A stretch of 63,815 bases of DNA, counting the filler, from Kipferlia bialata (Eukaryota), in NCBI GenBank assembly GCA_003568945.1. It is 4 parts of 4 records of this genome, joined end to end, with 100 filler letters (N's around TTAATTAATTAA, not from the genome) between each part and the next. Parts side by side here need not be neighbours in the genome. Positions count along the whole stretch, not along the records: positions 50,274 to 63,815 come from BDIP01000597.1; 3 more parts are not named here. One strand, given 5' to 3'. The position numbers and the translations under genes were made by a program. The notes below the pieces were generated by a model. That model was not told where the DNA came from. It searched no databases and saw only the letters and a program-made list of their open reading frames with translations. This document shows, in pieces, positions 25,301 through 63,815 of the stretch; the stretch's first letter is position 1, and each line of letters begins with the position of its first letter.

Positions 25301-28300
25301 ATCCTGCACCTTGTGGAGGAATGGAGTGGGGCCACCGGCTCCGACCACCCCCTGTGTGGCCATGTGTGTGACTATGCTCTGTGCCAGTCGTCACTGGAGG
25401 AGGTGTTCCTCAGACTCAGCCACTCACAGCATAGCAGGGTACATGGGGATGCACCGAAGCCCGACCCCCAAAGGGATTCCTTTGGCCTCTTGCATCCTTC
25501 TACACGGAAGCCTGCGACAGTGTCAGATGTGACATCTGATACTGTGAGAGAGGCAGTTAGAGAGTCCGAGGAGAGCTCGTTTGTGGCTCGCAATGACCCT
25601 TGGGGCAGTAGTGTGTCCCACTCTGACGACCGGTGGGTGAGTGAGAGTGGGGACGGCAACACCAAGACCACGCACCCTGACACAATGAGTGCACAGGAGG
25701 TGGACAGGGTGCTGCGCCCACCTACCAAGACTCCGCGAGTATTCAGAGGGCTACTGAGTAAGATGCTTGCATTGGAGCGTACCCAGTCTTCCCTTGGTGT
25801 TCTGGGTGTATTTGGGATGCCGTGTATCCTAATGGGTGTCTGTTTCCTGCTGATAGCCCTTGTCCTACCTACGGTCATCTCTATAGCCGAAGAGCAGCTG
25901 GACTCAGTGCTAGAGACGGCCCAGGTCATGTGTGACCTCTGCAACACACTTAGTACACGTAGTGAGCTATCCCTAGACTCCTATGTGGAGCCCTGCTACG
26001 GGTGGGACGGGATGGGCCGGCACTACATCTGCACCCAGCTGGAAGAGTACAATGGGGAGGAGATGGACCCGGGGGTGCTGTGGGTTGCCAACCCCGACCA
26101 GGCTATGTTCAATGCCTACCATGCACCCACGTGGGTGGTGCCCTGGGATCTGACAGGGGGTATGCACGGGAGCCTGCCACCAAACAACACGGTCCTGGCC
26201 ACATATGACCAGCCCCTACTCGACTACAACGGAGACCCTATGAGGGAGGAGACAGATGCTGTAGACAGCATGGTCAGAGACTGGTGGTCCCTGTCCCCAG
26301 ACTACTCCAACCCATACTATGTCCCACAGACTGGGGTCTTCAACTCGTTCAGACTGCCTGTCTCCGAGACCATGAGGTACTCTGACATCAGCACGGTGGA
26401 GGAGACCAGCCTAGTGTTCGCCATGCACCTCACCCCCCCAACCTTTGAGGGCCATCCTTTTACCTCAGAGGAGGAGCTGGCTGGGTGGCTGTTCTGGTGG
26501 CAGACGCAGGACAGGAGCACAAGTGTGTCCACTCACCAGTTTGACATGAACGTCAGGAGTGATGCACAGCTCTTAGTCAATGCAATGATACCGTCTGCGT
26601 CCATCACCATACCCGAGGACCAGGTCCCCGGGTCCCCTTCTCTGACACCCACCATTGCATCCTACTTGCCGCCTAGCCCAGGGTTGCACCCCTACCAGCG
26701 AGTGAGCCTAGGTGTGAGATGGAATGAGATCACAGATTTCACTGATTCCATTGGAATCAGCATTGACGGCCTAGACTCTCTCCTTACGGACAAGACTAAG
26801 TTCTCCCCCCCACCTAGTCAGGCGCAGCGGCTGTTTGCCCTACCAGATGTGGTGTTCCCCAATGCCATATCCAACTCGATGTACTCTGTGCTACACACCG
26901 AGTTGGCCCAGTCTACCATCCGGTCAGAGCTGGGCCTTACCCAGGACGAGGTCAACATCAGAGTGGGGATGAAGCCCTTCCCGTACACGTGGGGCTTCAT
27001 CGCCAAGTCAGCCGAGAGTCGACTCGAAGGGTTCATCTCTGTAACGTTCCTGATGATCACCATCTTTGCTCTCATACCATCCCACACATACGGTCCCGTG
27101 CTGGAGAGAATGCAGGGAGTGCGGGCAGCCTACCGTCTCAATGGCGTCAACTCGGTACAGTACTGGACCTCCCTTCTGCTGTACAACGTTGCCCTGTCTC
27201 TCTCTGTCCATGCCTTCCTGTACGTGATAGGGTACCATGTGCTGGACATGAGATACTTCACCAGACAGGGCCTGGTTGTGATGGCACCTGTCCTTGCCTG
27301 CAGTGCCCTCAGCACCGTGTGTGTGGGCCTCTTCATCTCAGTCTTCTTCAAGTCAACCAAGGTGGCCTCTCTGTTTGGGTATGTCTACTCGATGGGTATC
27401 GTCGTGTTCATCTGGCTGATGGTCGAGTCCCCAGCTGATGTCTTAGAGGACGAGGTCAGATGGTGGTACAGGCTAGGACCCTCAGTGTCGATGGCTGTCC
27501 TGATGTTCTACATCTCCAACAGAGCATTCGACCGCTGGGATGACTTTAGAGCGGACCCGATGTCTGACCTCCTTGTTTCCGCAGTCATCCAGTGTGTCGT
27601 CGTGTTCCTATTGACTGTACTCATTGACTCTCTCATGTCTCGCAGTACTTCGTTTAGGTCTCTATCTAAGCGTCTGTTCCGCAAGTGCCACCAGGACCAG
27701 TCACAGGTAGTTGTGCAAGAGACTGTGGGTCAGGGGACTCTAGATAGACAGGTGTCCCTAGACGCCCCCCACCTTCCTGTCCCTGAGAACGATGTGCCGC
27801 AACTGCGCCGTCTCATGATCCCCCCTGTGTCTGTCGACCTGACGCCTATGCCAAGTAGATCCTCTAAGGAGGCCGGGACTGCTCGTGAATTGGCCCTCAG
27901 GTCCTGTGACTCTATGATGGATGCTGACGTGCGTGCTGAGCGTGTACAGATGGCCTCTGGTCTGGAACCAGACACACCAGTCGTGGTGAGTAACGTGCAG
28001 AAATTCTATCCCCCTAGGTTCACTGCCGTGAGAGATGTGGCATTCCACATTCCGCAATCGAGTTGTTTTGCACTGCTTGGGCCGAACGGTGCCGGAAAGA
28101 GTACCACTATCGATATGTTGACCGGCAACACACATATGACCAGCGGCTCTGCCTGTATTCTCGGCCATGACGTCGGGACCGAGACTAGCGCTGTACATAA
28201 GTGTCTGGGGTATTGTCCCCAGCACGATGTATTTGTGCCCACTCTCACTGTGCGGCAGCACCTGGAGCTGTTCTGTCGTCTAAGGGGGGTCCAGAGGGAT

Positions 28301-29002
28301 GATGAGAAGGCGGTGTCGGAACGCCTTGCGGGCTTTGTCCAGTTAGACCCAGCCATTGACACCCAGGCCATGCGTCTGTCTGGGGGCATGAGGCGCCGGC
28401 TGTCTCTGGCCCTGGCTTTGATAGGGGCACCTCCCATTGTGGTCCTGGACGAACCCTCCACCGGGTTGGACCCCTTTACCAAGAGGGCGGTGTGGCAGAC
28501 AATCGACGCTGCCAAGGCGGGCAAGGCAATGCTGCTAACCACTCACTCTACCGAGGAGGCCAGTGCCTTGGCCCAAAGGATAGGCATCATGGTGGCTGGT
28601 CAGATGCGGTGCATAGGAACAGGGCAGCACCTCAAGAGGAAGTTTGGGTCTGGGTTCACTCTGAGAGTCCTGCACAGAGAGGGGTACCCTGTTGACACAC
28701 TGACAGAGCTGGTGGTGGGTGCCTGTCCCGCTGCTAGACTGACCCACAGTGACCCACAGCCTGTCGGGCACTGCGTCCTCAGTCGCTATGCCATACCGGG
28801 GGGCAGCCGGATAGGGCCCCTCTTCCAGACAATGCTGACAGCCAGAGACAGGGAGTCGAGAGAGAGAGAAGGCGACACCGCCGAGGATACCATGGTGGCT
28901 GAGTTCAGTGTAGACTTCTCCAGTCTGGAGCAGGTCATGCTGAAGGTGTGTGTTGCGGCAGAGCCCCCAGAGGAAGATGTCTTAGAGATGCTGCAGCTGT
29001 GA
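21935..29002 (+). CDS. Full-size ABC transporter, subfamily A (TMD-NBD-TMD-NBD); 5' exons uncertain
   Basis: NBD1 has Walker A GHNGCGKT in a small exon (~24200-24259), signature YSGGM and Walker B IVCDEPT. NBD2 has GPNGAGKST, LSGGM, VVLDEPS and TTHS. ABCA motifs GxCPQ(H), LKRxxGSG and SLEEVF are present, with two hydrophobic TM blocks. The last exon runs ~24423-29002. Confidence 0.95.
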
Positions 29003-29852: not shown

Positions 29853-32800
29853 CTACTGCCGCTTCCTCAGCTGTTTGATAACACTTTCGTATGTCTCTAG
29901 ATCCTGCATCGTCTCGAGGTCTACAATTTCACAGACCTGGAAGTCCCCTGTCTCCTCTGAGAGGGGTACAGGGGCTGCCTTGTCACCCCGAGGGGCCTCT
30001 GTCTGTCTTGCTGCCTCAGACCACAGGGCAGACAGTGCCCCCACCTCCTTGCGGATGGCCTCGGTCTTGGCCGCCCTCTGGACATCTGCTGCCAGGGCTG
30101 CCAGGCCCATACTACACTGGTGCAGAGAGGCAGAGTAGATACGGTCCTTGTACACGCCAGACGTGGCAACATCAGCCTCGGGGGCATCATCTCCCTCCAC
30201 CCCCTCTTCTGTCTTAGTCTTGGTGTGACAGGCGGCAGTCTCTGCAACTAGGTCCTCAGGGGGGGAGAGAGCAGAAACGAGAGAGAGACTGTTCTGCCTC
30301 CCCACCGTGTAGTCCTTGCCCCCAGTGTCCAGCTCTGTCAGTACACCGACGGCCAGACCCACCTTGCCAAACCCACTCACTACGCTACCTGCGGCAGAGA
30401 CATACCGCATTGGAAGGGGGATATTGGCCTTGTTGAAGAGGTAGAGGGGGGTCAGGATCACGTGACAGGCAACGGATATGATGGAGGGCACTCCGGTGGC
30501 ACGCAGAAGCAGCACAATCTCGCTGAGTGCTGCAGCTAGGTACCCTCTGCACCCTGCCAGTTCAGGCCAACTGGCATGGGGCTGCACCCTTAAACAGGCA
30601 TCGAGTGTGGCCAGACACTGAATGGTGACGGCAATGATGGACCGGATGTCCTCGAGGTCCTCTATAGGCATGGTGGCAGAGACAGATGTACACATGGCGG
30701 CACATGCCCCGACACAGGCCGTGGATATGGATGCTATGAGGGAGGGCAGACACGTGGCCTCGATGCTGTGTGCATCAGCCACCCCCAGCTCCCTCACCAC
30801 AGTACGGGCCAGTCTGACGGTCAGGGGCGTGACTGTGTCAAACCATATGCCCCTTCCGGCCTCACCCCCTATCGAGCACACCCCATCCTGCACTGTGGGG
30901 CCAGCAGTCAGCACCACGGCTATCACTGCCTGTGCTATGTACCCCGCCCCCACCCTGCTCAGCCTCAGGAGGTTGATCAGTGACGTGGTGGCCTCCATCT
31001 CTGGGCACACCCGTCTGGAGTGCAAGAAGAGGGCCCCACATGTGGCAGCGACGTATGTGTCGATGGCGCCCTTCTGTACCGCCCCGACCAGGTAATGCGC
31101 TGTGTCTAGGAGGGCATCCTCAGAGGCAGGGCCCTCGGTGCCTGGGATGTCACACACAACACGCATCACAAGGGACACGCAAGGCGAGACCCGCTTGTCA
31201 CGGATTGTGTCAGTCACTATGTCCACAAACATGTCCCCCATGCCCACATTGGCTGCCAGCGCCATCCCGCCCCTCCCCAGGGTCACGGCGTGTGGCGCTG
31301 CATGACCACAGAGGGAGTGGCCCATGTCCTTCAGACAGAGAGAGACTGCGGCAGAGTCCAGGTCGTAGGGGGGGAGGCAGGCACATGCCACGAGTGCGTC
31401 ATGGGCCCCACAGAGGTCACTGCTCCTCTGCATCTGTCGGTCCCTAGTGACATGGCACAGGACACAGAGGGTGTCGGCCATGACCAGGTCGATGCCGTCC
31501 CCCCCTCCCTCCATGCACACCCTCAGTGCCGCAAACACATGACAGGGGGGGAGCAGGGTGGACTTGGCCTCACCCTGCTGTGCCACCTCTACCTTGGCAT
31601 CCCCTCCTGTCTCAAGTAGTGTCCGTGCCGTGTTTGATATGTATGTGAGTGCATCTTTGGCCAGAGACAGCACCAGCCCCCTGGCTGTACCCCCCATGGC
31701 ATGGAAGGTGGAGAGGAGAGAGAGACGGCGTCTGTCTGCCGTTGCTATGACATGGGGAGGGGACAAGCAGGGGTATGCCTTGGGGTTGACAGACTGGCGC
31801 AACACATCCAAGAGAAGGCTGTGGGTACCAGTCTCAGCCAGAGTCCTGTCATCACCTGACTCCTCTCCCTCCACCTCTGGCCCTATCATAGACACCAGGC
31901 TCTCCACACACTCAGTTGTGGCCTCCCTGACCTGTGCATCGGGTGATGCCATGCCCTGGCCTAGGTTGGCAGCTAGGTCAGCCAGGTGGTCCCTAGACAC
32001 ATGTCCCTGGGGGAGGGTGCCCAGGGCCTTGGGCAGGGCTCTAAAGGCTGCAGCCCGTATCTCAGAGGACGGGGCCACGGCTGAGTCGAGGGTGACCGAC
32101 AGCCGCACCCCCCCAGTTGGCATGACCCTCAATACCTTGAGGAGGGTGGCCTTGGGGGCGGTCTTGGCCTGACGCAGCACAATCAGGCAGAGCTGCAGTG
32201 CCTCCTCAGCACTGGAGGGCGACCCACCGTCGGTGACGTGGGGTAGGGTGCCCCAAGTGGCAATGGAGACAACGGCTGCACACCTCACACCCTGCACCTT
32301 GTCCTAAGAGTGAGACTAGGAAGTGGGTATATACGTAGAAACCGAGTGGGGAATGGAGTAGAATCAAGAACTGGGCTGAACTGCCACATGTCTCTCACCT
32401 CGGCTCTGATCTCAATGGCTGCCCCCAGATAGACAGAGGGGGACAGGAGGGCTGCCATCTCGCATGCCCTCTGCCTGACCTTCCAGGGCGTGGCCCCCAT
32501 GTCATGCACCACACACAGGGTGAGCACGTCCGTGGTGGGATCGGCCGCCTCCTGGGTCTCTAGGTCCACCCCCACCCCACTGGCATCCCTCACCGACACA
32601 CAGAGGGACACGATGCGGGTGGCCTGGGCCTTGGTCAGCTCTGTCTGCCTCAAGGCATGGTACATGACACGCTCCAGGGCACCACACAGATCTCCAGCGT
32701 CAGCCTTGTTAGCCCTCAAGGCCGTCTTCCATGTCTTTCCCACACCTGCAATGTGAGAAGAGAATACTGATACTGATGACTACCAACCACGCAGACTGAG

Positions 32801-36878: not shown

Positions 36879-37254
36879 TGTTTTTGAGAGACTAGGGATC
36901 TAGTTTGGCTAGAATAGGGGGGGGGGGGCTTCTGTGTTACAGACACCCTTCTATTGCTGATGGAGTGTTTGTATGAGTGTAGTATTTGTGTGTTTGTGTT
37001 GTCAGGGAGTGTAATAGACACTGAGGAAGTGTTTTGGGCCGCGTACAGTCACATAATTAAGCGATTGGAAGAGTTCAATTAGCGGTCATGACACACCCGA
37101 AGAGATACCTGCAACCGACTCAACAGTATGGAGTATTGGAAGCTCTCACTTGCATCCCCAGACAGTGTTTTTCCGTTGTCACTGTAATTGATGCCATCTC
37201 ATTGTCTCGGATATGACAGCAACATGACTAACTCTCTTACAACCCCATACTCAG

Positions 37255-40200
37255 ATGCCGGTAGGTGACCCAGTGGTAAGACCACTGGTTGTTCCTTCCC
37301 AGCCGCTGCTGTTGCCCAGAGATGAGACAGGACAACGTCTCTTAGGGACTGTGTATGACACCGTACCCTGTATTGTTCAACTTGATACAGGAGAGGTTCT
37401 CATGTCTGGTGGGTCTAGCAGTGATACCGTCTCGGATATTGCAGTATCAAGATCGGTGGGAGGCCTTGTAAGGTGCCAATTGGTTGATGCGGCGTCCACT
37501 AGTTCCACTATTGGGTATGTACGAGTACAGTGTGACTTACAGGACAGCGTGTATCGGGTGGATGTCTTAGAAGATGATGCAGAAGGATTAGCTGTCTACA
37601 GCTTAGCCAGACCCAGGAGAGGTCTTGAGTACCAATGGGTGTTGCACAAGACATCTATTACCTCTGCTTCTCTGCCTCTCGTGACGCATGCATGCTCCCT
37701 CTTCTCTCTTGGATCCAGTCTGGTGCTGGTAGGGGGAGGGCCAAACACTGATGGTGCGACATCTGATGCGTTCTGTTATGCTGTAGACACATCACTGTTC
37801 CATGACACATCCGATCAGCCACCCCAGTGGAGACAACGGGTCCCACCCCCTGTACGGGTAGAGTATGCGGGCTGTGTCGTAGTTGGATCCACCGCCCATC
37901 TACTAGGCGGGGTCACCAACAGGATGCACCTGACCTTCAGTCTAGACGGAGGGTGGGAGAGACTACCAGATATGCCACTCTCAGCAGTGTCTCCAGGTGT
38001 GTTGTCAGTTGGGGGGTACCTAGTGGTGATAGGGGGTCAGGGGCATGAAGGGCAGATACACGTGTATGAGAGAGAGACCTGTCTGTGGACCAAGGTGAAT
38101 GACGCAGGGTCCCGGGTCAGCCTGGTGAAGGCCTGTATGCTAGACGATACAACAGGTATATGACTCTGCATTTACCAACCAGTGGATACAGTTGTTAGAT
38201 ACATGAGAGGTATTGAATATCCAACTCAATTGAATCCTGACTACTTTGAGAACATTTGTTTGTTTCTCACAGCAGCTGTTGTGCACGGCACAGGGGGAAC
38301 AGTGACTCTCGATACCACATGGAAGTGTAGGATGGGACAAGCCATAGCTAGAGAGAGAGCAAGGAGGGTCCTGTCACTTCGTGTACCACTCTCTCCCCAA
38401 CATCCTGTCAGAGCTGCGCTACCCGTGCCAGTTACACACGTTGGTTGCATATTTCTGAACAGGGACAGAACTGGAGTATCTCTTCTGCTCAATTGTCAGA
38501 GAAGGCGTGAAGATGATACTGTGGTCCTCTCCCTAATGCAGGAGCAACTTCCACCTCATAGTCAACCACCATACACACAACTGATGACCATACTCCTGAG
38601 GAGTGGCTTTGGGGCCACACCACCACCTTCCGTCACACGATCCCTGCAGGCCACACAGCCTGTCACATCAGGACATCGCGTCATCTACAGTAGTCAGGCG
38701 ACAGCTTGGGTGGTTACTAGACTGACATCTATTCCCTCAGTGCCACATAAGACACATACCAACACCAGCCTGCAGTGGGTGTCGTTGGAGTCCCTTAGGG
38801 AGGTGGTATTGGGAAGCAGGGCGTCAACCACCAGCAGCATAGAGACATGGTCTGTGTATGGGACAAGCACTGCTAGAGTGAGCCAGTCTCTCTCCACCTG
38901 TATCCGTGACCCAACGGTCAGAGAGTGTCTCTCCAGAATCGGTCAGATATGTCCTATTACGTCACTGATTGATAAGGCAGCAGATCACATGTCTCATGTG
39001 ATTGGGACTGCTATGTCGGAAGCTAGAGAGATAGTATCCCTATCTCGTGACGAACTAGTTGTGCGGCTGTATGGTCCCAAGTGGACCCTTTCCCTGGCAG
39101 TGCCCGTCGTACCCCCACGTCCTCTGCTGCAGACAGTCACACCAGGTAGTATCCGGTACAGAGACATTGTAGCTTGCCTGCCAGAATGGCATCAGCAGAT
39201 ATATGGTGTCAGGGCTGTCATTGTTCCAGCTAGACAGGCAGTCTTTGAGCAGCAAAAACGACAGCTTACTGCTAACGGTGAGCTTCTTGGTGTGTATGAC
39301 CCCCTCTACCATGGTACTCCTGACGTGTGGAGGGCGACACAGATAGCACTGCATGGGTTTGATCGGTCTAAGGTTGTGCGTGGTAGTGGTATGTACACAA
39401 CAACTGATGTGAACACTGCACTAAGTTACACCCAGGGGTCCATACGTCCTAATACGTACGGATCTCTCACTATCCTCAAGGGACTACAGACAAATGATGT
39501 GGAACATGATAGTGCCACTATTCACATATTCCAAGACCCCGCAAACCTCCTATGTGTAGCCACCATCGACTTTGGAGAGGACACCTCCAACACAGACGCA
39601 GAGGAAGAGGCTGCGAGGGAGAGACTGATGCAGCACCAAAGGGAAATTGAGAGGGTAAACGAAGCAATAATGGCAGCTGAGAGACAGTTCAGAGTCAAGA
39701 CTATGCATCGTATGCGTGTTGCAACTGCGGGATACCTGTCAGTACTGGGCTCTCTACAAGACAGGCTCTCTTCAAACACTGTCCCACTCTCAGCAAGTGA
39801 GTTTGCTTCTATTAAGACGGCATTCATTAATGAGAAGAGTCAGTATGGGGGACACTTACCAATCTTCAACGACAAGACTGAAATCGTGAACAGGCTACGT
39901 ACTCACGACGTACTGCTTCTACACGCTCCCACTGGGACAGGCAAGAGCACACACCTACCCCAGTACATAGTAGATGAGGTGCTACCAGATGAGACTAGAC
40001 CAGTGGCCGTTCTCCAGCCAAAGCGTGTCAACTGTACCTCACTTGCATCCTATATAGCCACACAGAGAGGCACCCGGGTAGGTGGAGGGGTAGGATACAG
40101 ACTGGGAGGGGGTGTGCACAGAGTGAGTGAGCATACTCGCATTGAGTTTGTCACACATGGACTGTTTGCAAGACTGGCTCTGCATGGAGATATAGTGTCT

Positions 40201-43200
40201 CGTTACTGTGCTGTAATCGTAGATGAGGCACATGTAGAGGGGAGTGACGTGAATGAGTGCCTTGCTGCTCTAAGGAATGCTATGCGTGTCAATCACACAT
40301 CGCATTCCACTAGCACCTTCAAGGTGGTGGTTTGCAGTGCAACTCTCCTTCCTCAGAAACAAGAGACACTAGCCCATTATCTCTGTGGGGACGCTGTCAC
40401 TTACTCCTCTCTTTCCGTTACTGCAGCGGCATTTCCAGTTCACACAATATACCGGGATATACCGGATGTTCCAAGTGATGACACAGAGAGGGGTGGTATG
40501 ATGAATGACTCTCTTATGACTGCCACTGTAGAGTCGGCCCTTCAGTTTCTGTCAATTTCCGACACGGGAAGTGTCTTGGTATTCTTGCCAGGTGCCAAAG
40601 CACTCACAGATGCCATGCACTGTATAGTGGGCTTCATGGACAGTGACCCAGAGACCGAGGTAGGAGCATCTGGACTACGGTTTCAGATTGGAGATACTCG
40701 CATTGGTGTGCTGCCATTCCATGGAACACAGAGCAGGGAGGAGCGAGACATTGTCCTTCGCTACACATCCCACGGTTTGGACAGGGTAGTAGTCCTTGCC
40801 ACCAACCTTGCTGAGACGGGACTGACCATACCTGACATCCGGTGTGTCGTTGACACAGGACTGGAGAGAGTGGTGTCATGGGATACAGAGAGAAGGTGCG
40901 AGGTAATGACACTACAGTATGCCTCTGCGTCCAGTCTCGACCAGCGTAGGGGGAGGGCCGGTCGGACTGGCTCCGGTGTTTGTATACGTCTGTACTCGGA
41001 AGACACATACCACTCCACCACAAAGAGTATGGCCATGCAATGCAACCCAGAGGGTACTTGTCTTAGACAGCTAGCCATGCTGGATAACAGTAAGAGGTGG
41101 GAATTTCTCCATCCGATACCTGATAGGGACAGAGGCTATGCCTTAGATGTCCTAAAGAGAGTAGGAGCAGTCTCGCTTGATGGGCACATCACTCCCGCTG
41201 GTTCCCTGTTTGTGGCACTGGGTGTGTCTGCTAGAGTGGGTGCATTCCTATTAGAGTGTGACAACAGTGGGTGTCTGTGTAGTGGGTGTGTCATTGCTGC
41301 AGTCCTGACTGCTGGATCTCTGACTTTGCCACTCACTGTCCACAACCAGGAGTCCCCCCTGAACATGTACGTTCACCCAACTGGAGATCATCTCACCCTG
41401 CTGCAGCTGTATAATGCATACACAGGGGAGGTCAACAAACACCAGTGGTGCATTGATATTGGAATTGACATTGCACACTTTGCTTCGACACAGAGGGTGT
41501 TTGATGGGATGGTCAACACTCTGACCCACCATGGATACTCTGTTGCAGACAGCGATACCCTGTTAGAAGACACTGAGGAGTGTCACTGCCTTCTGCTCAA
41601 AGCACTCCGTGCAGCGTTTGCAGACCAACTGGCAACAGTAGGACCCACGCAATACTCCTTGCACCAGCTGACTCTCACGAGTCTGGGGGTCACCCTGTCC
41701 AGAGCTACGGTGTCCCTCACCAATACGTCAGTCCTATATGATTCAGTCTTCATCCATACTCAGTGCATCATGGTGTATCACTCCCGTCAACACCTAGACA
41801 CGATGGATGGACCTAGGGTGAGCATTGTGTCATACGTTCCAGACACCAGAGTCGCTGATGGACACACTACTGACTGGACACTTCCAACTCAACATGAGGA
41901 CGTAGAGTCCACTGAGTTGCTTGTAGAGAAGATACTTCTTCCAAAGAACCTAACGCAAATGTCAAGAAGACTGAGACGTATGGACCAGCAGATAACCATC
42001 ACTCAGCCGTCTGTTGCAAGTCGGTCCCACGCTGCACCTGAAGCAGAGGTAAAGGTGAGACTAACGGCACCAACTCACGCCTTTGTTGCAGCACATGACA
42101 GATTCTGGGACATAGTGTCAGAGAGTGTTACAGAGCATGTCAGCATTGCCGTTCCTAGGGGTCAGAACATGCAGAGGCTGGACACAGGACTGCAAGGCTT
42201 GGCCCGTCAAGTACAGGAGGAGTTACAGACCCTTAGGCAGGAGACTCACGGTTGGATCCTTAGACTGGACAGAGCACATTACAGAGTGGTGATGTCTTTA
42301 GGAGGTCCCGGCAAGTGTCACCTTCCATCGTACATAGCAAGGGTCAAGGAGTTAGTCAGAAGCAATGGAGGTATGTAGTATGACTCTATACAAAGCATAT
42401 GTCAGCCACCAACTATTTCCCAATTCTTCCACACTATTTCTTGTATCATTATACAATGACTCTGTCAAAGGTACTCGCGTCCACTCACTATAGGACTCAG
42501 GCAGGTGGTGTTGAATGTGCCAGGCTTCTCCGTCTCGACCCCTCTCGAGGCCGCTAACCCTCGACTACTGCAGCTGCTGAGACCTACACCACCTTCTACA
42601 CGGCACATGGATAGAGACCGTGCCATGTTGTGTCTAGCTCACCATCTAATCTGGCACTGTGACTGCAAGCTGTACGGAGGGTTTGTGAGAGACTATGTGG
42701 TAAGAGGGGAGCGAGCCCATGACCTGGATGCCCTGCTTCCTAGAGGGCAGGGTAGTTTAGAGGAGACTGGAGAGAGTGTCTCAAGCTCCCTAAGACAGTA
42801 CGCAGAAAGTATCAGCCTTGGTAGCTGCGATGTCCATACACAACGACACATCTACCGCCTGACCTTCCATTTCGCAGCAGGTGATATCACTGTAGAATTA
42901 GTCGACCCCTCTCTTCCAACACCCTCCCCTCATGCTGACTCGTCTCCTGGAAACATTGCCATATGTAGAGCAGGATTACAAAAGAAGAGCAACGCTGGAG
43001 GTGCCATCGTTCCTCTGTCGGCCTGTTTGGCCCACACACACGCCAAGCAGTTTGTGTGCTTTCTGGATTTTGACAACAGAGACAACAGACACAACTTGCA
43101 ACAGAGAGTGGTTAACAAGTATCTCAGTAGAGGGTGGGCCTTACTCAACAAGCTACCCCAACGCCAGATGCAAGAGCTTAGACAGAATCAGCATTATGAG

Positions 43201-60127: not shown

Positions 60128-61496
60128 GTCACACAGTACCCCTCTGATGCCCAGAAGGAATAGAGGAACTAAGCAAGAGTAGTCGATCTATCTGTGCACT
60201 GGAACAAACCCTTTAGAGCAAGTCATTCAAAAACTCTTATTACGCGTTGAAAACCTTGTGTAGATCTATATTACAAATACAGTAAAAAGGACGCATCAGA
60301 CATGTTATTTTACTCACACCCGGCGGCAAAGCCGGTTTCCGCAATACTTTCTTGTAAAGCGCTTCGTGGTTGGATTAGTCTCATCATTGGAAGCATTCGA
60401 ACTCGCGCTAGCCACTTACCAAGCCGTAAGTGTCTGTCCCAAGCCAAATTATCGTCACTCTGAAAAAAACACTCGCGGAGGAGTGGATTTATACATCGTT
60501 AGTAGGGTTGTGGTGGTGTCACAACAGCAAACCAGACCTGTACCGAGTGTGTATTGGTGCCAAAAACGTTACACCCCAATAGAAGAAAGGGTGCAGTAAT
60601 TGTTGTGACGGCGCAGAGGGGACGGTACAAGAGCGTCTATCTACGAGCACGTCTGCGGGGCGTGTCAATATACTGGTCACAGGGTGCAGGACACACACAC
60701 AGCCCTCTGGAAGTGGAGGGCACCGACCCACACCCACGAGTGCCTGCAAATCACCCCATACCAGGCGCTAGGGAGTACATCAATACACTGCGTGTTACAT
60801 GATGCCGGACCCACTACCTGTTGAGAAGGTGAGGGTCTCCCCCATATCCTTCTCCTGCGAGAGAGAGACAGAGAGAGTGTCCAGGGAGAGGAGTGTGTCT
60901 CGGAGGGTGAGGAGAGAGACACAGTCTTGCAGACATGAGCCATATACACGACACATCGTACACACCCACCCCTAGTCCCCCCACCCTGGCTGTGGGTTGA
61001 ACTCCAGTTCAACCAGGTCCCACTGACACCCCTCAGGGTCAGGCGAGGGTGTGCGTGCGAACCTGTGGTGGTGCTCCACCGACCCCATACACACTCTCTC
61101 CCACTCAGCCTCAGACCCAGCACACTGACTCAGAAGGTTGACGTGGTATAGTGTGGCGAGGCCTAGCTGGGGGGTCCAGCTTGGGTAAGTATGGTGAGGT
61201 ATATCTGAGTATAGTACATGATAGTATAGAGAAGTACTCAACTGTCTCCAGATGTGAATCGGGTCCACAGTAGAGTCAATTGGACCCTGCGATAAATAGC
61301 ACTAGCTTGTCTCTCAGCCTGTCACCCACCTGTTCTCCACCGTGTCATAGAGTCTGTACCCACTGTCCCTTCGGAACATATCTCCATCTGGCACCACAAT
61401 GTACCTAGGGTAAGGACAGAGCACGAGAGAGATACACCGACAGTTATTCTATATATATAAATATATACAAATGCATAGTATTGCCTCCCGTGCACT

Positions 61497-62143
61497 AGAG
61501 AGTAGCTCTTCTCTTTGGCAGGGCTACGGTGTATCGACACCCGACAAGGGATAACCAGGGGGCGGTGTTCCTCGAAATGCCGAGCGGTCACTGCGAAGTG
61601 TCCCATCCCCTCTTCCAGCTCCTGAAGAGGACTGGTTTCCACGTCAACGGCATCAAGAACATACCCGACTGGCTCCTGTCTATTTCTGTCGAGTCCAAGA
61701 GGCACTTTGTCGCCGGATGCATAGAGTCTGACGGAACCATTGAGCCCCCCGAGGGCCAGCACCGCACAACTAGTGGGAAATTCGCTAATACTAACTACCA
61801 GTTCGTGATTCCCTTCAGGCGCATTGCGGCTAGTCTTGGATACGGTGTACGTACGACTCTACATGTTCCCAAGAGTGAGAAGAGCAGTCCCGTTTACAAG
61901 GTTGGCATCACCCATCGTACCCTGTTGGGGGAGCTTCAAGACATCTGGAGGCTCCACCACAAGAATGAGGTAATAACTCTCCCTAGTCAGAAGGCAAACT
62001 CTCTATTGAGTGAGGGTGTAAGCGTTCTCCCCCTTGAGGGTCTCCGCCAGGGTCGGTCATTCACTTTCCTTGAGAGAGGTGACCCATACTTCGTCACACC
62101 TATGGGCTATGTGATGAAGGCGATGGAGGTAGAATAGATTTAT
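61497..62143 (+). mobile_element. 647-bp insertion flanked by a 6-bp direct repeat TGCACT (61491-61496 and 62144-62149)
   Basis: Removing the insert and one TGCACT restores the antisense kelch reading frame. The insert lacks microsatellites and introns. Confidence 0.8.
61499..62137 (+). CDS. 5'-truncated intein-type (DOD) LAGLIDADG homing endonuclease with degenerate Hint C-terminal blocks
   Basis: KNIPDWLLSISVESKRHFVAGCIESDGTI (block D/E), FANTNYQFVIPFRRIAASLG (block H) and GDPYFVTPMGYVMKAMEVE* (block F/G-like, no His-Asn). The frame is open from the insert boundary. Confidence 0.8.
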   Translation, partial: RVALLFGRATVYRHPTRDNQGAVFLEMPSGHCEVSHPLFQLLKRTGFHVNGIKNIPDWLLSISVESKRHFVAGCIESDGTIEPPEGQHRTTSGKFANTNYQFVIPFRRIAASLGYGVRTTLHVPKSEKSSPVYKVGITHRTLLGELQDIWRLHHKNEVITLPSQKANSLLSEGVSVLPLEGLRQGRSFTFLERGDPYFVTPMGYVMKAMEVE

Positions 62144-63815
62144 TGCACTGCCCATGTCCCTGCCCGACCCACACTCTCGGGCATATCCTCTGACCTCCAC
62201 TGACCCTTGCCCCCAAGCACATCGGGTGTGTACCACAGGTGTCTGTGGTCTGCGAGGATATGCAGTGCATTGTGGGTAGAGGCCACGACGTACTGGTCCC
62301 TCTTCATGGCCTTCGTCCCGCTGAAGCAGTTGGTGTGCCGTATCTTGGCCCTCCCCACCCACTGCTCTGTCTCAGGTATATACTCTTTGACGCGGGTGGG
62401 TGTGTGCTGATCACCGACACACACTAGAAACAGGGCATCCCCAACTGTCACTAGGTGGGTACGCTTCAGACTGTCAAAGGGTATGTCCATACCATGGCCA
62501 CGCAGGATGCCAGGCTTGGGGAGCTCAGTCCAGGGGGGAGGCAGACAGACTGGACAGACACACACACGTCTTGGCCGATAGTGACGACTTACATATTCGT
62601 AGTCATAGTTATAGAATTCCTCATCAGAACACTTCGGAGCATCTTTGGCATCCGCGACCTTTTTCTGGTATTCAGGCAGCCTACCCATATCCAGTGAATG
62701 CACGACAAACTGGAACTCGTCTCTAGAGGCGGGGTCTGACCTGGAAGGGAAGGCGGGACTGAGAGAGGGAGAGAGAGAGGGGGGGGGATTACCTACTGCC
62801 CAGGAGGATGTAGAGGTGACCCCCCAGCCTGGCCACGCTCTTGTTCAACCTAACCCACCACTCAGGGAGAGCGATACTCGACGGTGCCTTGTCTATCTCC
62901 CGGTTATTCACGATATACAGCTGGGGTCAGAGAGCCAAGCCGATACTTCACTGCTGATCTGGTCTCTTGGATACCTCTGCCTTGTCGGCCCACAGGCTGT
63001 CCCCTAGTCCTATGGAGGAGAGGGGTGTGGCATCTATCAGGGCAGGGTGGGGTCGGGGGAGAGAGGTGACACGGAGGAAGGGAGCCCTGTCTGGGGTCAG
63101 AGAGAGAGAGAGAGAGAGAGAGAGATACTGGGAGAGAGTCAGTGACGCTGGAACAAGCAGAGAGACCCAGAGGGGGAGGGATAAAGGGAAGGGGGGGGGG
63201 GGGGTAGGAGGGGTAAGAGAAAGTGTCACTGCTAGTCCAGAGGGATGTTGCGCCATTTCCAAGATACAGACATAGTCTCTTGCGTCACCACATCAGTTCA
63301 TCTGGGGGCTAACTAGAGGGATCCAACCCGTACCTGTACTACCCATGGGACACAAGGGGTTGTGGGTGAAGCATATATGCTTGGCCTTGTTCCTTATAGA
63401 GTGCTTGAAGCCTAGGAGGTGGAAGCCTTTGGAACTGGAAAACCTAGAGGGTAAGTGATGGGAGACAGATATAGAGAGAAAAAGGGAAGAGTCCAATACA
63501 ACCACACATCCATACATATTAGCAGAATGTGTTGACGCGAAAGAGACCAAAGAGCACTGCTCGAGAGGTAGATACGCAGACACCAGGAGCGGTGGGCAGA
63601 ATAGACCACCACACAGAGGAAAGACACACCCAGCATGTATTCTAATCTACATACATATAGTGCTGTGCGTGTATCATAGTGTCACTGTGTCATGGGGGGT
63701 TACAAACAAGGATAGACGTAGAGAGAGAGAGAGAACTCTGTGGGAAACGGAAATGTGCATGGGAGGGGGAGAGGGGGTGGGGGGGGGGGGGGGGGGGGGG
63801 GAAGGGGGAGGAAGA

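What the first reader, a model, noticed from the sequence alone, without database searches (positions are those of the whole stretch)
61491..62149. Intein-derived LAGLIDADG endonuclease fragment inserted with a 6-bp duplication, splitting a nuclear kelch gene
Seen: TGCACT flanks both ends of a 647-bp insert. Deleting it restores the antisense ...GTWAV-H-GR|YIVV...YDTVEN|SWT kelch frame. The insert ORF is open from its first bases (5'-truncated), holds the second LAGLIDADG motif (FVAGCIESDG), and ends in Hint block F/G-like sequence that lacks His-Asn and stops a few residues later with no extein. Known: intein endonucleases normally spread in frame by homing, without target duplications; non-splicing intein-derived nucleases exist in yeasts (HO, WHO). 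Inference: this is a trace of an unrecognised mobile element or viral gene with a domesticated intein nuclease, inserted by retroposition or break capture.
Basis: partly seen in the sequence, partly recalled or inferred. Interest (0 to 1): 0.78.

Follow-up and report, generated by a model that had tools for sequence, protein, structure and literature searches.

The report
Intein-type nuclease gene fragment splitting a gene
A single-copy, front-truncated piece of a gene for an intein-type LAGLIDADG DNA-cutting enzyme lies backwards inside a transcription-factor-like gene of the free-living protist Kipferlia bialata, where it was likely dropped in once by accident and cut the host reading frame short; it is an unusual relic, not a demonstrated new mobile element.

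Summary
The sequence features are there. TGCACT lies at 61491-61496 and 62144-62149 around 647 bp. That stretch holds a 212-codon + strand frame that is open from the first inserted base.

The frame is a relative of the second half of intein-type LAGLIDADG endonucleases. The closest is yeast PI-SceI/VDE (phmmer E 1e-4; structural Z 11.8, model 1-158 on PI-SceI 241-406). Phage intein nucleases also match. The N-terminal splicing domain and the first LAGLIDADG motif are absent from the whole window.

The 52-residue tail has the position and length of an intein C-terminal splicing part and lacks His-Asn. Its block F/G likeness is not significant (profile -1.7 bits; 2475 of 5000 shuffles score as high), and no structural alignment covers it.

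The window is Kipferlia bialata nuclear DNA. The interrupted minus-strand gene is KIPB_003205, which has an E2F/DP winged-helix domain. No Pfam kelch family matches it, so "kelch" rests on pattern only. Its annotated stop lies inside the insert. A spliced, probably RNA, contig ends 7 nt before the duplication.

Removing the insert continues the frame into two downstream segments with coding-like codon usage, but this needs one GC-AG intron.

No second copy (80% identity or more) is in the DNA run. No relative turned up among 1.84 billion protein representatives. A one-off ectopic insertion is likely. The route and the donor are unresolved, and a mobile-element family is unsupported.

The parts
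61491..61496 (.). Left copy of the 6-bp direct repeat TGCACT (putative target-site duplication)
   Evidence: No further identity beside the hexamer on either side.
61497..62143 (+). 647-bp inserted segment, single copy
   Evidence: Bounded by the two repeats. One DNA contig of run X1 spans both junctions, and no other X1 contig matches at 80% identity or more.
61499..62137 (+). 212-codon open frame (plus TAG) for the second half of an intein-type LAGLIDADG endonuclease. The first ATG is at 61577, which is the annotated 186-aa protein P0001.
   Evidence: Pfam LAGLIDADG_3 E 0.0077, below the curated cut-off. PI-SceI matches by phmmer at E 1e-4, by Foldseek at E 2e-6 and by VIA-align at Z 11.8. 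Atlas features 0.92 and TM 0.73. A profile of 36 viral inteins scores 61.9 bits.
61706..61735 (+). The only LAGLIDADG motif (FVAGCIESDG, residues 70-79). It corresponds to the second motif of PI-SceI. Asp78 and Lys53 (KNIP) are invariant in the alignment.
   Evidence: invariant K53, P56, G73, D78, G79.
61979..62134 (+). 52-residue tail (residues 161-212) in the place of an intein C-terminal splicing part. It has no His-Asn and no +1 nucleophile. Homology is not shown.
   Evidence: Colinear with inteins in alignments. The profile test is negative. pLDDT is 52-68 and no structural match covers it.
62144..62149 (.). Right copy of TGCACT
62139..62144 (-). AATAAA on the host-gene strand, formed across the insert/repeat junction. 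It contains the host gene's present stop codon TAA (62142-62140).
   Evidence: Read. P0004 ends ...GTWAVQ. Whether Kipferlia uses this signal was not tested.
62140..62739 (-). Last exon of the present gene KIPB_003205 (P0004 residues about 313-513), ending in a stop supplied by the insert
   Evidence: The X2 contig covers 62156-62739 and ends at 62156.
62792..63442 (-). Upstream exons of KIPB_003205 inside the window: 62792-62920, 62975-63089 and about 63334-63442. The introns are GT..AG on the minus strand. The E2F_TDP domain lies beyond the window end.
   Evidence: Joints and pieces of the X2 contig. tblastn of P0004. Intron ends.
61405..61484 (-). Putative former intron (80 nt, GC..AG, 36% G+C) between the interrupted exon and the next relic exon
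   Evidence: Inferred from the sequence. It is non-canonical and more A+T-rich than the three RNA-supported introns (54-63% G+C).
61330..61404 (-). Putative relic exon (…YIVVPDGDMFRRDSGYRLYDTVEN…)
   Evidence: Open frame with splice-like borders. Codon log-odds give no frame signal: 0.27, 0.30 and -0.20 per codon in the three frames. No Pfam match and no RNA contig.
60972..61179 (-). Putative relic last exon (SWTPQ…GWGD, then a stop) after a canonical GT..AG intron (61329-61180)
   Evidence: Codon log-odds are 0.296 per codon in the predicted frame against -0.07 and -0.25 in the others. Host genes give 0.21-0.36. No Pfam match.

Best explanation
The 647 bp at 61497-62143 are a single-copy, 5'-truncated fragment of a gene for an intein-type (PI-SceI-like) LAGLIDADG homing endonuclease, lying antisense in the 3' part of the Kipferlia bialata gene KIPB_003205. 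It was likely inserted once, ectopically, at a staggered break that was filled in to give the 6-bp TGCACT duplication.

Shown:
- the identity of the fragment
- its truncation
- its single copy
- its position inside the annotated gene, whose stop codon it supplies

Inferred:
- The host gene formerly ran on for about 95 more codons through two downstream exons.
- The fragment came from a free-standing, non-splicing, intein-derived gene or a cDNA of one, exogenous or since lost.
- The joining was done by alternative (Ku-independent) end joining.

The fragment is probably inert. It has one of the two LAGLIDADG motifs, though it keeps the motif's Asp and the KNIP Lys. No expression is shown.
For: Identity of the fragment:
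- phmmer against the PDB hits only PI-SceI/VMA1 chains, five sequences at E 9e-5 to 1.1e-4, query 33-91 on PI-SceI 281-339.
- Foldseek ranks 1-10 are all PI-SceI, E 2.3e-6 to 1.3e-4.
- VIA-align gives Z 11.8-10.2, 115-131 residues at 2.6-4.0 A, model 1-158 on PI-SceI 241-406. The model has mean pLDDT 73.6, and 87-96 over residues 41-140.
- The Atlas gives feature score 0.92 to LAGLIDADG_3 clusters and TM 0.73 to Hom_end/LAGLIDADG_3 clusters.
- tblastn hits 64 phage records. The 30 listed lie mostly under genes named terminase, exonuclease or RNA ligase, the rest under hypothetical proteins. The five I examined carry an intein.
- 44 viral loci match, and a 36-sequence profile scores 61.9 bits.

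Truncation:
- Alignments start about 25-30 residues after the WLGDG first motif of the relatives.
- No N-terminal half is found in the window.

Recent, undecayed insert:
- The frame has 212 codons without a stop and the repeat is a perfect 6/6.

Non-splicing source:
- K-A-M stands where 36 of 36 aligned viral inteins have H-N. Those 36 were chosen for ending in HN followed by Cys, Ser or Thr.

Single copy:
-.

Split host gene:
-.
- P0004 ends at a stop inside the insert.
- The spliced X2 contig ends at 62156.

Repair route:
- Passages of PMC8516963 state that metamonads lack Ku70-Ku80 and DNA-PKcs, and that alternative end joining is full or partial in the free-living ones.
Against: - The former gene model needs a GC-AG intron with a poor 5' site (AG|GCAATA), whereas the three RNA-supported introns of this gene start GTA. 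The K. bialata genome paper counts only GU-AG introns.
- No profile recognises the host C-terminus or the downstream segments as kelch or anything else.
- The hexamer is common in the window. A 6-bp match near two loosely defined borders is not rare by chance.
- A random captured fragment would not be expected to end 6 nt after its own stop codon.
- End joining does not by itself make a 6-bp duplication.
- Codon usage of the insert is not clearly foreign: GC3 is 0.62, and the RSCU correlation is 0.435 where host chunks give 0.34-0.88. Yet no donor copy is found in the genome run.
- The DNA run that spans the junctions may be the assembly's own source, so it is not independent.
Confidence: 0.55

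Rival explanations
1. The fragment is a processed pseudogene. An mRNA of a free-standing intein-derived nuclease gene would have been reverse-transcribed at a nick by a LINE-type enzyme. That would give an intact 3' end, 5' truncation and a short target duplication.
For: The anatomy fits. The frame is open at the 5' border, the stop codon is kept with only 6 nt after it, and a 6-bp duplication flanks the insert. The homologous part carries no intron.
Against: There is no A-run or other tail between the frame's end and the right repeat. No source gene or second copy exists in the DNA run or in the protein collections. No reverse-transcriptase family appeared among the 12 largest frames of the window that I scanned with Pfam, out of 68 frames of at least 130 aa. 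A 6-nt 3' UTR is very short.
Confidence: 0.15
2. The + strand frame is a separate, possibly functional small gene (annotated P0001) lying between two genes. On this reading KIPB_003205 ends natively at its present stop, and the TGCACT pair and the downstream frame continuity are coincidence.
For: Both gene models exist as annotated proteins. The frame is intact and keeps Asp78 and Lys53. Single-motif LAGLIDADG enzymes can act as homodimers (recalled knowledge, not tested). The hexamer is common. No profile supports the downstream exons.
Against: The protein starts in the middle of a domain and lacks the first motif and the whole N-terminal splicing and DNA-recognition part, so it is a fragment that had to arrive somehow. 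The host stop and AATAAA are formed exactly at the junction. The downstream segment 61179-60975 has host-like coding statistics in the predicted frame.
Confidence: 0.15
3. One reading: the insert is a trace of an unrecognised mobile element or virus that carries a domesticated, non-splicing intein nuclease (HO/WHO-like) and integrates with 6-bp duplications.
For: The fragment has no extein, no His-Asn and a stop right after the Hint-like tail. This resembles HO and WHO, which lack exteins and motif G (PMC7282813 section 6). A 6-bp duplication is typical of integrase-mediated insertion (recalled). An exogenous donor would explain the missing source copy.
Against: There is one copy only. The insert has no terminal inverted or long terminal repeats (read; no repeat tool was run). 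No relatives turned up in IMG/VR by a close-relative scan, and the 44 distant viral relatives are ordinary inteins ending in His-Asn. The fragment has no zinc finger and there is no duplicated host 3' end as in WHO elements.
Confidence: 0.08
4. The junctions are an assembly chimera, or the segment is contaminant DNA.
For: The only DNA run that holds the stretch may be the assembly's own source.
Against: One contig of 3215 nt with uniform word depth 458 covers 60600-63089 with no differences and no alternative joint. Composition is continuous with the flanks. The neighbouring gene is spliced eukaryotic DNA.
Confidence: 0.02

Closest known systems
PI-SceI / VDE, the VMA1 intein endonuclease of Saccharomyces cerevisiae
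   Same: It is the best sequence and structure match: phmmer E 1e-4, Foldseek E 2e-6, Z 11.8. The KNIP Lys, the second LAGLIDADG motif with its Asp and the following beta-sheet are colinear. The distance from the motif Asp to the end is 130 residues here and 128 in PI-SceI, counted from the alignment and the 454-residue chain.
   Different: Only PI-SceI residues 241-406 have a counterpart. Missing are the N-terminal splicing and DNA-recognition region, the first motif, His-Asn, any extein and any in-frame host. The fragment lies antisense in an unrelated gene.
HO and WHO elements of yeasts (PMC7282813, abstract and sections 6 and 10 read)
   Same: They are intein-derived LAGLIDADG proteins without exteins and without C-terminal motif G. 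They sit beside or inside a host gene whose 3' end they affect.
   Different: HO and WHO have a C-terminal zinc-finger domain and are full length. WHO homing replaces the host gene's 3' end with a functional copy and leaves a duplicated fragment. Here there is no zinc finger, no duplicated host 3' end, a truncated nuclease and a truncated host frame. The lineage is a metamonad, not a yeast.
LAGLIDADG_3/Hom_end inteins of phages and bacteria (for example the large-terminase inteins of Bacteroides phage B124-14 and Mycobacterium phage Omega)
   Same: Identity is 23-44% over 29-163 residues in 44 viral loci and 64 phage records. The fragment is colinear with them from just after the first motif to the intein end.
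   Different: All 36 aligned relatives end in T-H-N and continue into an extein. They were chosen for ending in HN followed by Cys, Ser or Thr. The fragment ends K-A-M-E-V-E and then a stop.
Nuclear inteins of Anaeramoeba (PMC10710043, abstract, sections 5 and 9 and passages read; two supplement files searched)
   Same: A metamonad nuclear genome with intein endonuclease DNA, including pseudogenised inteins and movement to non-homologous sites.
   Different: Those inteins are in frame in host proteins. The paper and the two supplement files held do not mention Kipferlia.

Membership tests
Intein-type LAGLIDADG endonuclease domain (Pfam LAGLIDADG_3 / Hom_end; PI-SceI domain II) | Sequence or profile match to the family | tested here: met
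   Pfam LAGLIDADG_3 alone is below its cut-off (16.9 against 22.5 bits, E 0.0077). Other tests agree: PI-SceI by phmmer at E 1e-4, tblastn to intein-bearing phage genes, a profile of 36 viral inteins at 61.9 bits (these were picked by similarity to the query, so the score is inflated), and Atlas features at 0.92.
Intein-type LAGLIDADG endonuclease domain (Pfam LAGLIDADG_3 / Hom_end; PI-SceI domain II) | LAGLIDADG alpha/beta fold | tested here: met
   Z 11.8-10.2 to seven PI-SceI entries, and Z 6-9 to I-DmoI, I-CreI and PI-PfuI. Foldseek probability is 1.00. The model core has pLDDT 87-96.
Intein-type LAGLIDADG endonuclease domain (Pfam LAGLIDADG_3 / Hom_end; PI-SceI domain II) | Two LAGLIDADG motifs in one chain (the monomeric intein type) | tested here: not met
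   Only the second motif is present (residues 70-79). The alignment starts after the relatives' WLGDG motif. No first half is found in the window.
Intein (protein-splicing element) | N-terminal splicing domain (blocks A and B) | tested here: not met
   tblastn with five full phage inteins finds only 61499-61927. Nothing matches their N-terminal halves at E below 0.3.
Intein (protein-splicing element) | C-terminal blocks F and G ending in His-Asn, followed by Cys, Ser or Thr | tested here: not met
   The tail ends ...GYVMKAMEVE and then a stop. K-A-M stands in the H-N plus nucleophile columns. The profile of the last 45 intein residues scores -1.7 bits, and 2475 of 5000 shuffles score as high or higher.
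Intein (protein-splicing element) | Inserted in frame in a host protein | tested here: not met
   A stop lies directly upstream (61496-61498) and the frame has its own stop at 62135-62137. The host gene is on the other strand.
HO / WHO intein-derived nucleases | C-terminal zinc-finger domain, and for WHO a duplicated 3' end of the host gene | tested here: not met
   The frame ends 4 residues after the tail. No second copy of the host exon exists in the window. The family features are taken from PMC7282813 sections 6 and 10.
Insertion with target-site duplication | Identical short direct repeats at both borders, and an empty site that restores a continuous target | tested here: inconclusive
   The 6/6 repeat is present. 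Removing the insert continues the frame and reaches coding-like segments. This needs a GC-AG intron. No empty allele or orthologue was available (one search shows no joint).
LINE-mediated processed pseudogene | Poly(A) or another 3' tail next to the downstream duplication | tested here: not met
   ATTTAT is followed directly by TGCACT.
   No kelch family matches at E up to 10 in P0004 or in the three downstream minus-strand frames scanned, nor at E up to 1 in the two flanking frames. There are only weak Atlas leads at 0.79 and a by-eye blade pattern.
E2F/DP winged-helix protein (the host gene) | E2F_TDP domain | tested here: met
   PF02319 at E 2.8e-10, 40.2 bits against a cut-off of 25.7, residues 110-173 of P0004. 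That part lies outside the window.

The most novel reading that the evidence does not exclude
Kipferlia, or a virus or symbiont that it meets, harbours a family of free-standing, non-splicing intein-derived LAGLIDADG nucleases. These would be a non-fungal counterpart of HO/WHO, spreading by ectopic, duplication-generating integration instead of homing. This fragment would be the first trace of that family.
Probability: 0.07. Interest if true: 0.8.

Novelty: new member of a known kind. Interest (0 to 1): 0.36.

Why it matters
Intein endonuclease DNA is rare in eukaryotic nuclei and normally moves only by in-frame homing. The library search for Kipferlia together with intein found no paper. The one metamonad report concerns in-frame inteins of Anaeramoeba (PMC10710043).

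This locus shows intein-type nuclease DNA landing outside any extein, antisense, in a fornicate gene. It has clean borders that could record how such DNA integrates in a lineage said to lack Ku-dependent end joining (PMC8516963, passages).

If a donor or more copies were found, the locus would bear on how free-standing nucleases such as HO arise from inteins. As it stands it is a single relic. Its value is as a lead, and as a correction to the annotation: KIPB_003205 is probably truncated, and the 186-aa protein is a gene fragment.

Tried and rejected
- **Whole genome.** None is held for this window, so copies elsewhere in the assembly could be sought only through run X1's contigs.
- **RNA.** No RNA holder is on record. 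X2 is only guessed to be RNA, and its CT..AC joints that match the annotated exons support the guess. No X2 contig lies on the insert or on 60600-62155 apart from three 18-22-nt pieces of one unrelated contig on mixed strands. I estimate that chance gives about 15 such 22-mers with up to two mismatches. This blank says nothing about expression.
- **Protein collection searches.** The insert frame hits only itself. The two other hits are repeat proteins that match by composition. The host exon gives nothing in the near-length range and only its own annotated protein among longer ones.
- **Other libraries.** NCBIfam gives nothing for the frame or for P0004.
- **The tail.** Pfam and PDB searches with the tail alone give only chance-level rows. 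A first five-sequence tail profile did not score the tail at all. Searches also suffered from a wrong hmmsearch option set, which was corrected.
- **Structure.** AlphaFold2 without an alignment was useless (pLDDT 37.8).
- **Close-relative scans.** Viral, metagenome and prokaryote contigs gave none.
- **Repeats within the host.** BLASTP of the relic exon against P0004 gives no alignment. P0004 against the window's Pfam-positive kelch frame gives E 0.3 or worse.
- **Codon usage.** It does not tell a foreign from a native origin.
- **Earlier findings of this scan.** Three look-ups returned nothing.
- **Alternative splice models.** Reading the insert as an intron of the host gene (GT at 62148, AG at 61497) leaves the frame shifted and closed. 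A single long intron to 61405 is also out of phase. Both were worked out by hand.
- **WHO-type homing.** No duplicated host 3' end exists.


Full report
**1. What is in the sequence**

TGCACT lies at 61491-61496 and again at 62144-62149, with 647 bp between the copies. Identity does not extend beyond the six bases on either side. The hexamer is not rare: the window has 33 copies and chance would give 43.5. So the pair means something only together with the other evidence.

Inside the 647 bp, one + strand frame runs from 61499 to a TAG at 62135-62137, which is 212 codons. The stop that closes it upstream (61496-61498) overlaps the last base of the left repeat, so the frame is open from the third inserted base. 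It ends 6 nt before the right repeat. The first ATG is codon 27. From there the frame is the 186-aa protein P0001, which a public annotation already holds.

**2. What the frame encodes**

Several independent tests agree.

- Pfam gives only a sub-threshold LAGLIDADG_3 match (E 0.0077, 16.9 bits against a cut-off of 22.5).
- phmmer against all PDB sequences returns five sequences at E about 1e-4. All are PI-SceI or the VMA1 precursor. Query 33-91 aligns with PI-SceI 281-339, which is the KNIP lysine and the second LAGLIDADG motif.
- The ESM Atlas holds P0001. By features it sits among LAGLIDADG_3 clusters (0.92, 171 shared features). By structure it matches Hom_end/LAGLIDADG_3 clusters at TM 0.63-0.73. 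Several of these are intein-bearing RNR, SufB, DnaB and terminase proteins.
- tblastn against 50,697 phage records hits 64 records. The 30 listed lie mostly under genes named terminase, exonuclease or RNA ligase, and the rest under hypothetical proteins. The best E is 1e-3.
- In the five records I fetched, the match is the second half of an intein nuclease that ends in His-Asn followed by Ser or Thr.
- Using an alignment of these as a probe, 44 IMG/VR loci encode relatives at 23-44% identity.
- A profile of the 36 loci that end in His-Asn scores the frame at 61.9 bits, aligned over residues 30-169. This score is inflated, because the 36 were chosen by similarity to the query.

With that alignment, AlphaFold2 gives mean pLDDT 73.6, and 87-96 over residues 41-140. 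Without an alignment it gave 37.8. Foldseek's ten best PDB chains are all PI-SceI (E 2.3e-6 to 1.3e-4). VIA-align gives Z 11.8-10.2 for seven PI-SceI entries, with model residues 1-158 lying on PI-SceI 241-406. Other LAGLIDADG enzymes follow at Z 9 and below.

**3. What is missing from it**

- The alignments begin some 25-30 residues after the first LAGLIDADG motif (WLGDG) of the relatives.
- tblastn with five complete phage inteins finds nothing for their N-terminal halves anywhere in the 63.8-kb window.
About 240 residues of a PI-SceI-sized protein are absent.

The last 52 residues (161-212) stand where the C-terminal splicing part of an intein would be. The distance from the motif Asp to the end is 130 residues, against 128 in PI-SceI. 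MAFFT places the tail colinear with blocks F and G of the relatives. Homology of the tail is not shown:

- A profile of the last 45 residues of the 36 inteins gives -1.7 bits, and 2475 of 5000 shuffles do as well or better.
- Pfam and PDB searches with the tail give chance rows.
- The tail has pLDDT 52-68, and no structural alignment reaches past residue 166.

What can be said is that the tail lacks T-x-x... His-Asn and a +1 nucleophile. K-A-M stands there, and a stop follows four residues later. The frame shows no decay at all, and turning His-Asn into Lys-Ala needs at least four base changes. I therefore infer that the donor already lacked them. On that reading the donor was a non-splicing, free-standing derivative rather than an active intein.

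**4. The surroundings**

The minus-strand exon just right of the insert is 100% identical to residues 313-513 of P0004. This is the 513-aa "hypothetical protein KIPB_003205 [Kipferlia bialata]". So the window is nuclear DNA of this free-living fornicate. Its genome is 51 Mb with 49.4% G+C and 124,912 GU-AG introns (PMC5874029, passages).

P0004's only Pfam family is E2F_TDP (E 2.8e-10, residues 110-173). That part lies beyond the window's end. No kelch family matches P0004 or the three downstream minus-strand frames at E up to 10, nor the two flanking frames at E up to 1. The Atlas gives weak kelch, NanM and RAG2 propeller leads at 0.79. By eye the C-terminal 250 residues show a blade-like period. 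"Kelch gene" is thus a pattern reading, not a tested fact.

P0004 ends ...GTWAVQ. The Gln codon is completed by the insert's last base, the TAA stop (62142-62140) lies inside the insert, and the junction forms AATAAA on that strand.

**5. Reads**

Two coded runs of one sample hold the stretch.

- In X1 (DNA, possibly the assembly's source), one 3215-nt contig of word depth 458 covers 60600-63089 without a difference. No joint skips the insert. No other contig matches the insert at 80% identity or more. So there is one copy and no visible empty allele.
- In X2 (guessed to be RNA), a 1128-nt contig covers 62156-62739, 62792-62920, 62975-63089 and 63334 onward. The skipped parts are GT..AG on the minus strand and match P0004's exon borders.
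- That contig ends at 62156, which is 7 nt before the right repeat, with no loose end. This is consistent with a transcript ending at or just inside the insert. A contig end is not a mapped 3' end.

**6. Was a gene split?**

Leaving out the 647 bp plus one repeat continues the host frame with H-G-R. The next steps are:

- A GC..AG intron (61484-61405, 80 nt, 36% G+C) would lead to ...YIVVPDGDMFRRDSGYRLYDTVEN.
- A canonical GT..AG intron (61329-61180) would then lead to SWTPQ... and a stop at 60974-60972.
- That last segment has codon log-odds of 0.296 per codon in the predicted frame, against -0.07 and -0.25 in the other two. Host genes give 0.21-0.36.
- The short middle exon gives no frame signal: 0.27, 0.30 and -0.20 per codon in its three frames.
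- The stretch across the junction (…R-A-G-T-W-A-V-H-G-R-Y-I-V-V-P-D-G…) resembles the strand order seen in the window's own Pfam-positive kelch frame (…G-V-L-S-V-G-G-Y-L-V-V-I-G-G…). That alignment has E 4.

Against the split, the GC-AG site is poor and unlike the three supported introns. No profile or orthologue supports the downstream exons. I put the split-gene reading at about 0.65.

**7. How it got there**

The fragment had to arrive by some non-homing route. It is antisense, out of any extein and truncated.

- The anatomy is a 5' truncation, a native-looking 3' end and a 6-bp duplication. This resembles target-primed reverse transcription, but there is no tail and no source gene.
- I see no terminal inverted repeats or LTR-like ends in the sequence. 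No repeat tool was run on the insert.
- Metamonads are reported to lack Ku70-Ku80 and DNA-PKcs, with alternative end joining full or partial in free-living members (PMC8516963, passages).
- I therefore favour capture of a DNA or cDNA fragment at a staggered break by alternative end joining (about 0.45 of the total), then retroposition (0.15).
- One of the two hexamers could be donor sequence used as microhomology. The left one cannot be coding donor sequence, because it creates the in-frame TAG.

Codon usage does not separate a foreign from a native origin. No donor was found in 1.84 billion protein representatives. Close-relative scans of viral, metagenome and prokaryote contigs also found none.

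**8. Comparison with known systems**

- **PI-SceI.** It shares fold and motifs with the fragment. The fragment fails every feature that defines an intein.
- **HO and WHO.** They share "no extein, no motif G". They also have a zinc finger, and WHO duplicates the host 3' end (PMC7282813 sections 6 and 10). Neither feature is present here. A 2026 preprint on WHO elements was seen only in a search listing.
- **Anaeramoeba.** This metamonad has 45-103 in-frame nuclear inteins and some pseudogenised ones (PMC10710043, abstract and sections 5 and 9). The paper and its two held supplement files do not mention Kipferlia.
- **Literature.** The library search for Kipferlia with intein found no paper.

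**9. Verdict**

It is best filed as a new, lineage-unexpected member of a known kind: a relic fragment of an intein-type homing-endonuclease gene, in an unusual ectopic position. The bolder idea of an unrecognised element family has no support beyond this one copy. Interest is moderate at 0.36.

Noticed in passing
window 22850-29002 (+): A 1532-codon uninterrupted frame (24404-29002) carries two ABC_tran domains and ABC2_membrane_3. It is preceded by a 445-codon frame (22850-24187) with ABC2_membrane_3. Together they look like one ABCA-type transporter gene with very long exons, in a genome otherwise said to be intron-rich.
   Followed up: no
window 37228-42378 (+): A 311-codon frame with Pfam kelch matches (Kelch_6, E 3.6e-8) abuts a 1404-codon DEAD/Helicase_C frame that starts at the next base (38164). 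They may be one kelch-helicase gene separated by a stop or a short intron.
   Followed up: no
window 29853-32303 (-): An 816-codon open frame has no Pfam family at E 0.001 or below but shows strong host-like codon statistics, 0.36 bits per codon.
   Followed up: no
L004:2393-3700 (Staphylococcus phage Alsa_4, annotated 'RNA ligase'): The annotated CDS starts inside an intein. It has only the second LAGLIDADG half plus the C-terminal splicing part (…VTHN|T) and then the extein, and a short 'terminase' CDS lies just upstream. This is a natural example of the same half-nuclease layout, or a mis-annotated or decayed intein.
   Followed up: partly
window 62139-62144 (-): The insertion junction itself creates AATAAA and the TAA stop on the host-gene strand. 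The truncated gene therefore gained a stop, and possibly a 3'-end signal, from the insert.
   Followed up: partly
window 62754-62791 and 63090-63138: G/A-rich low-complexity tracts inside the introns of KIPB_003205 were skipped as repeats by the read tool. They attract many short contigs from elsewhere in the genome.
   Followed up: no
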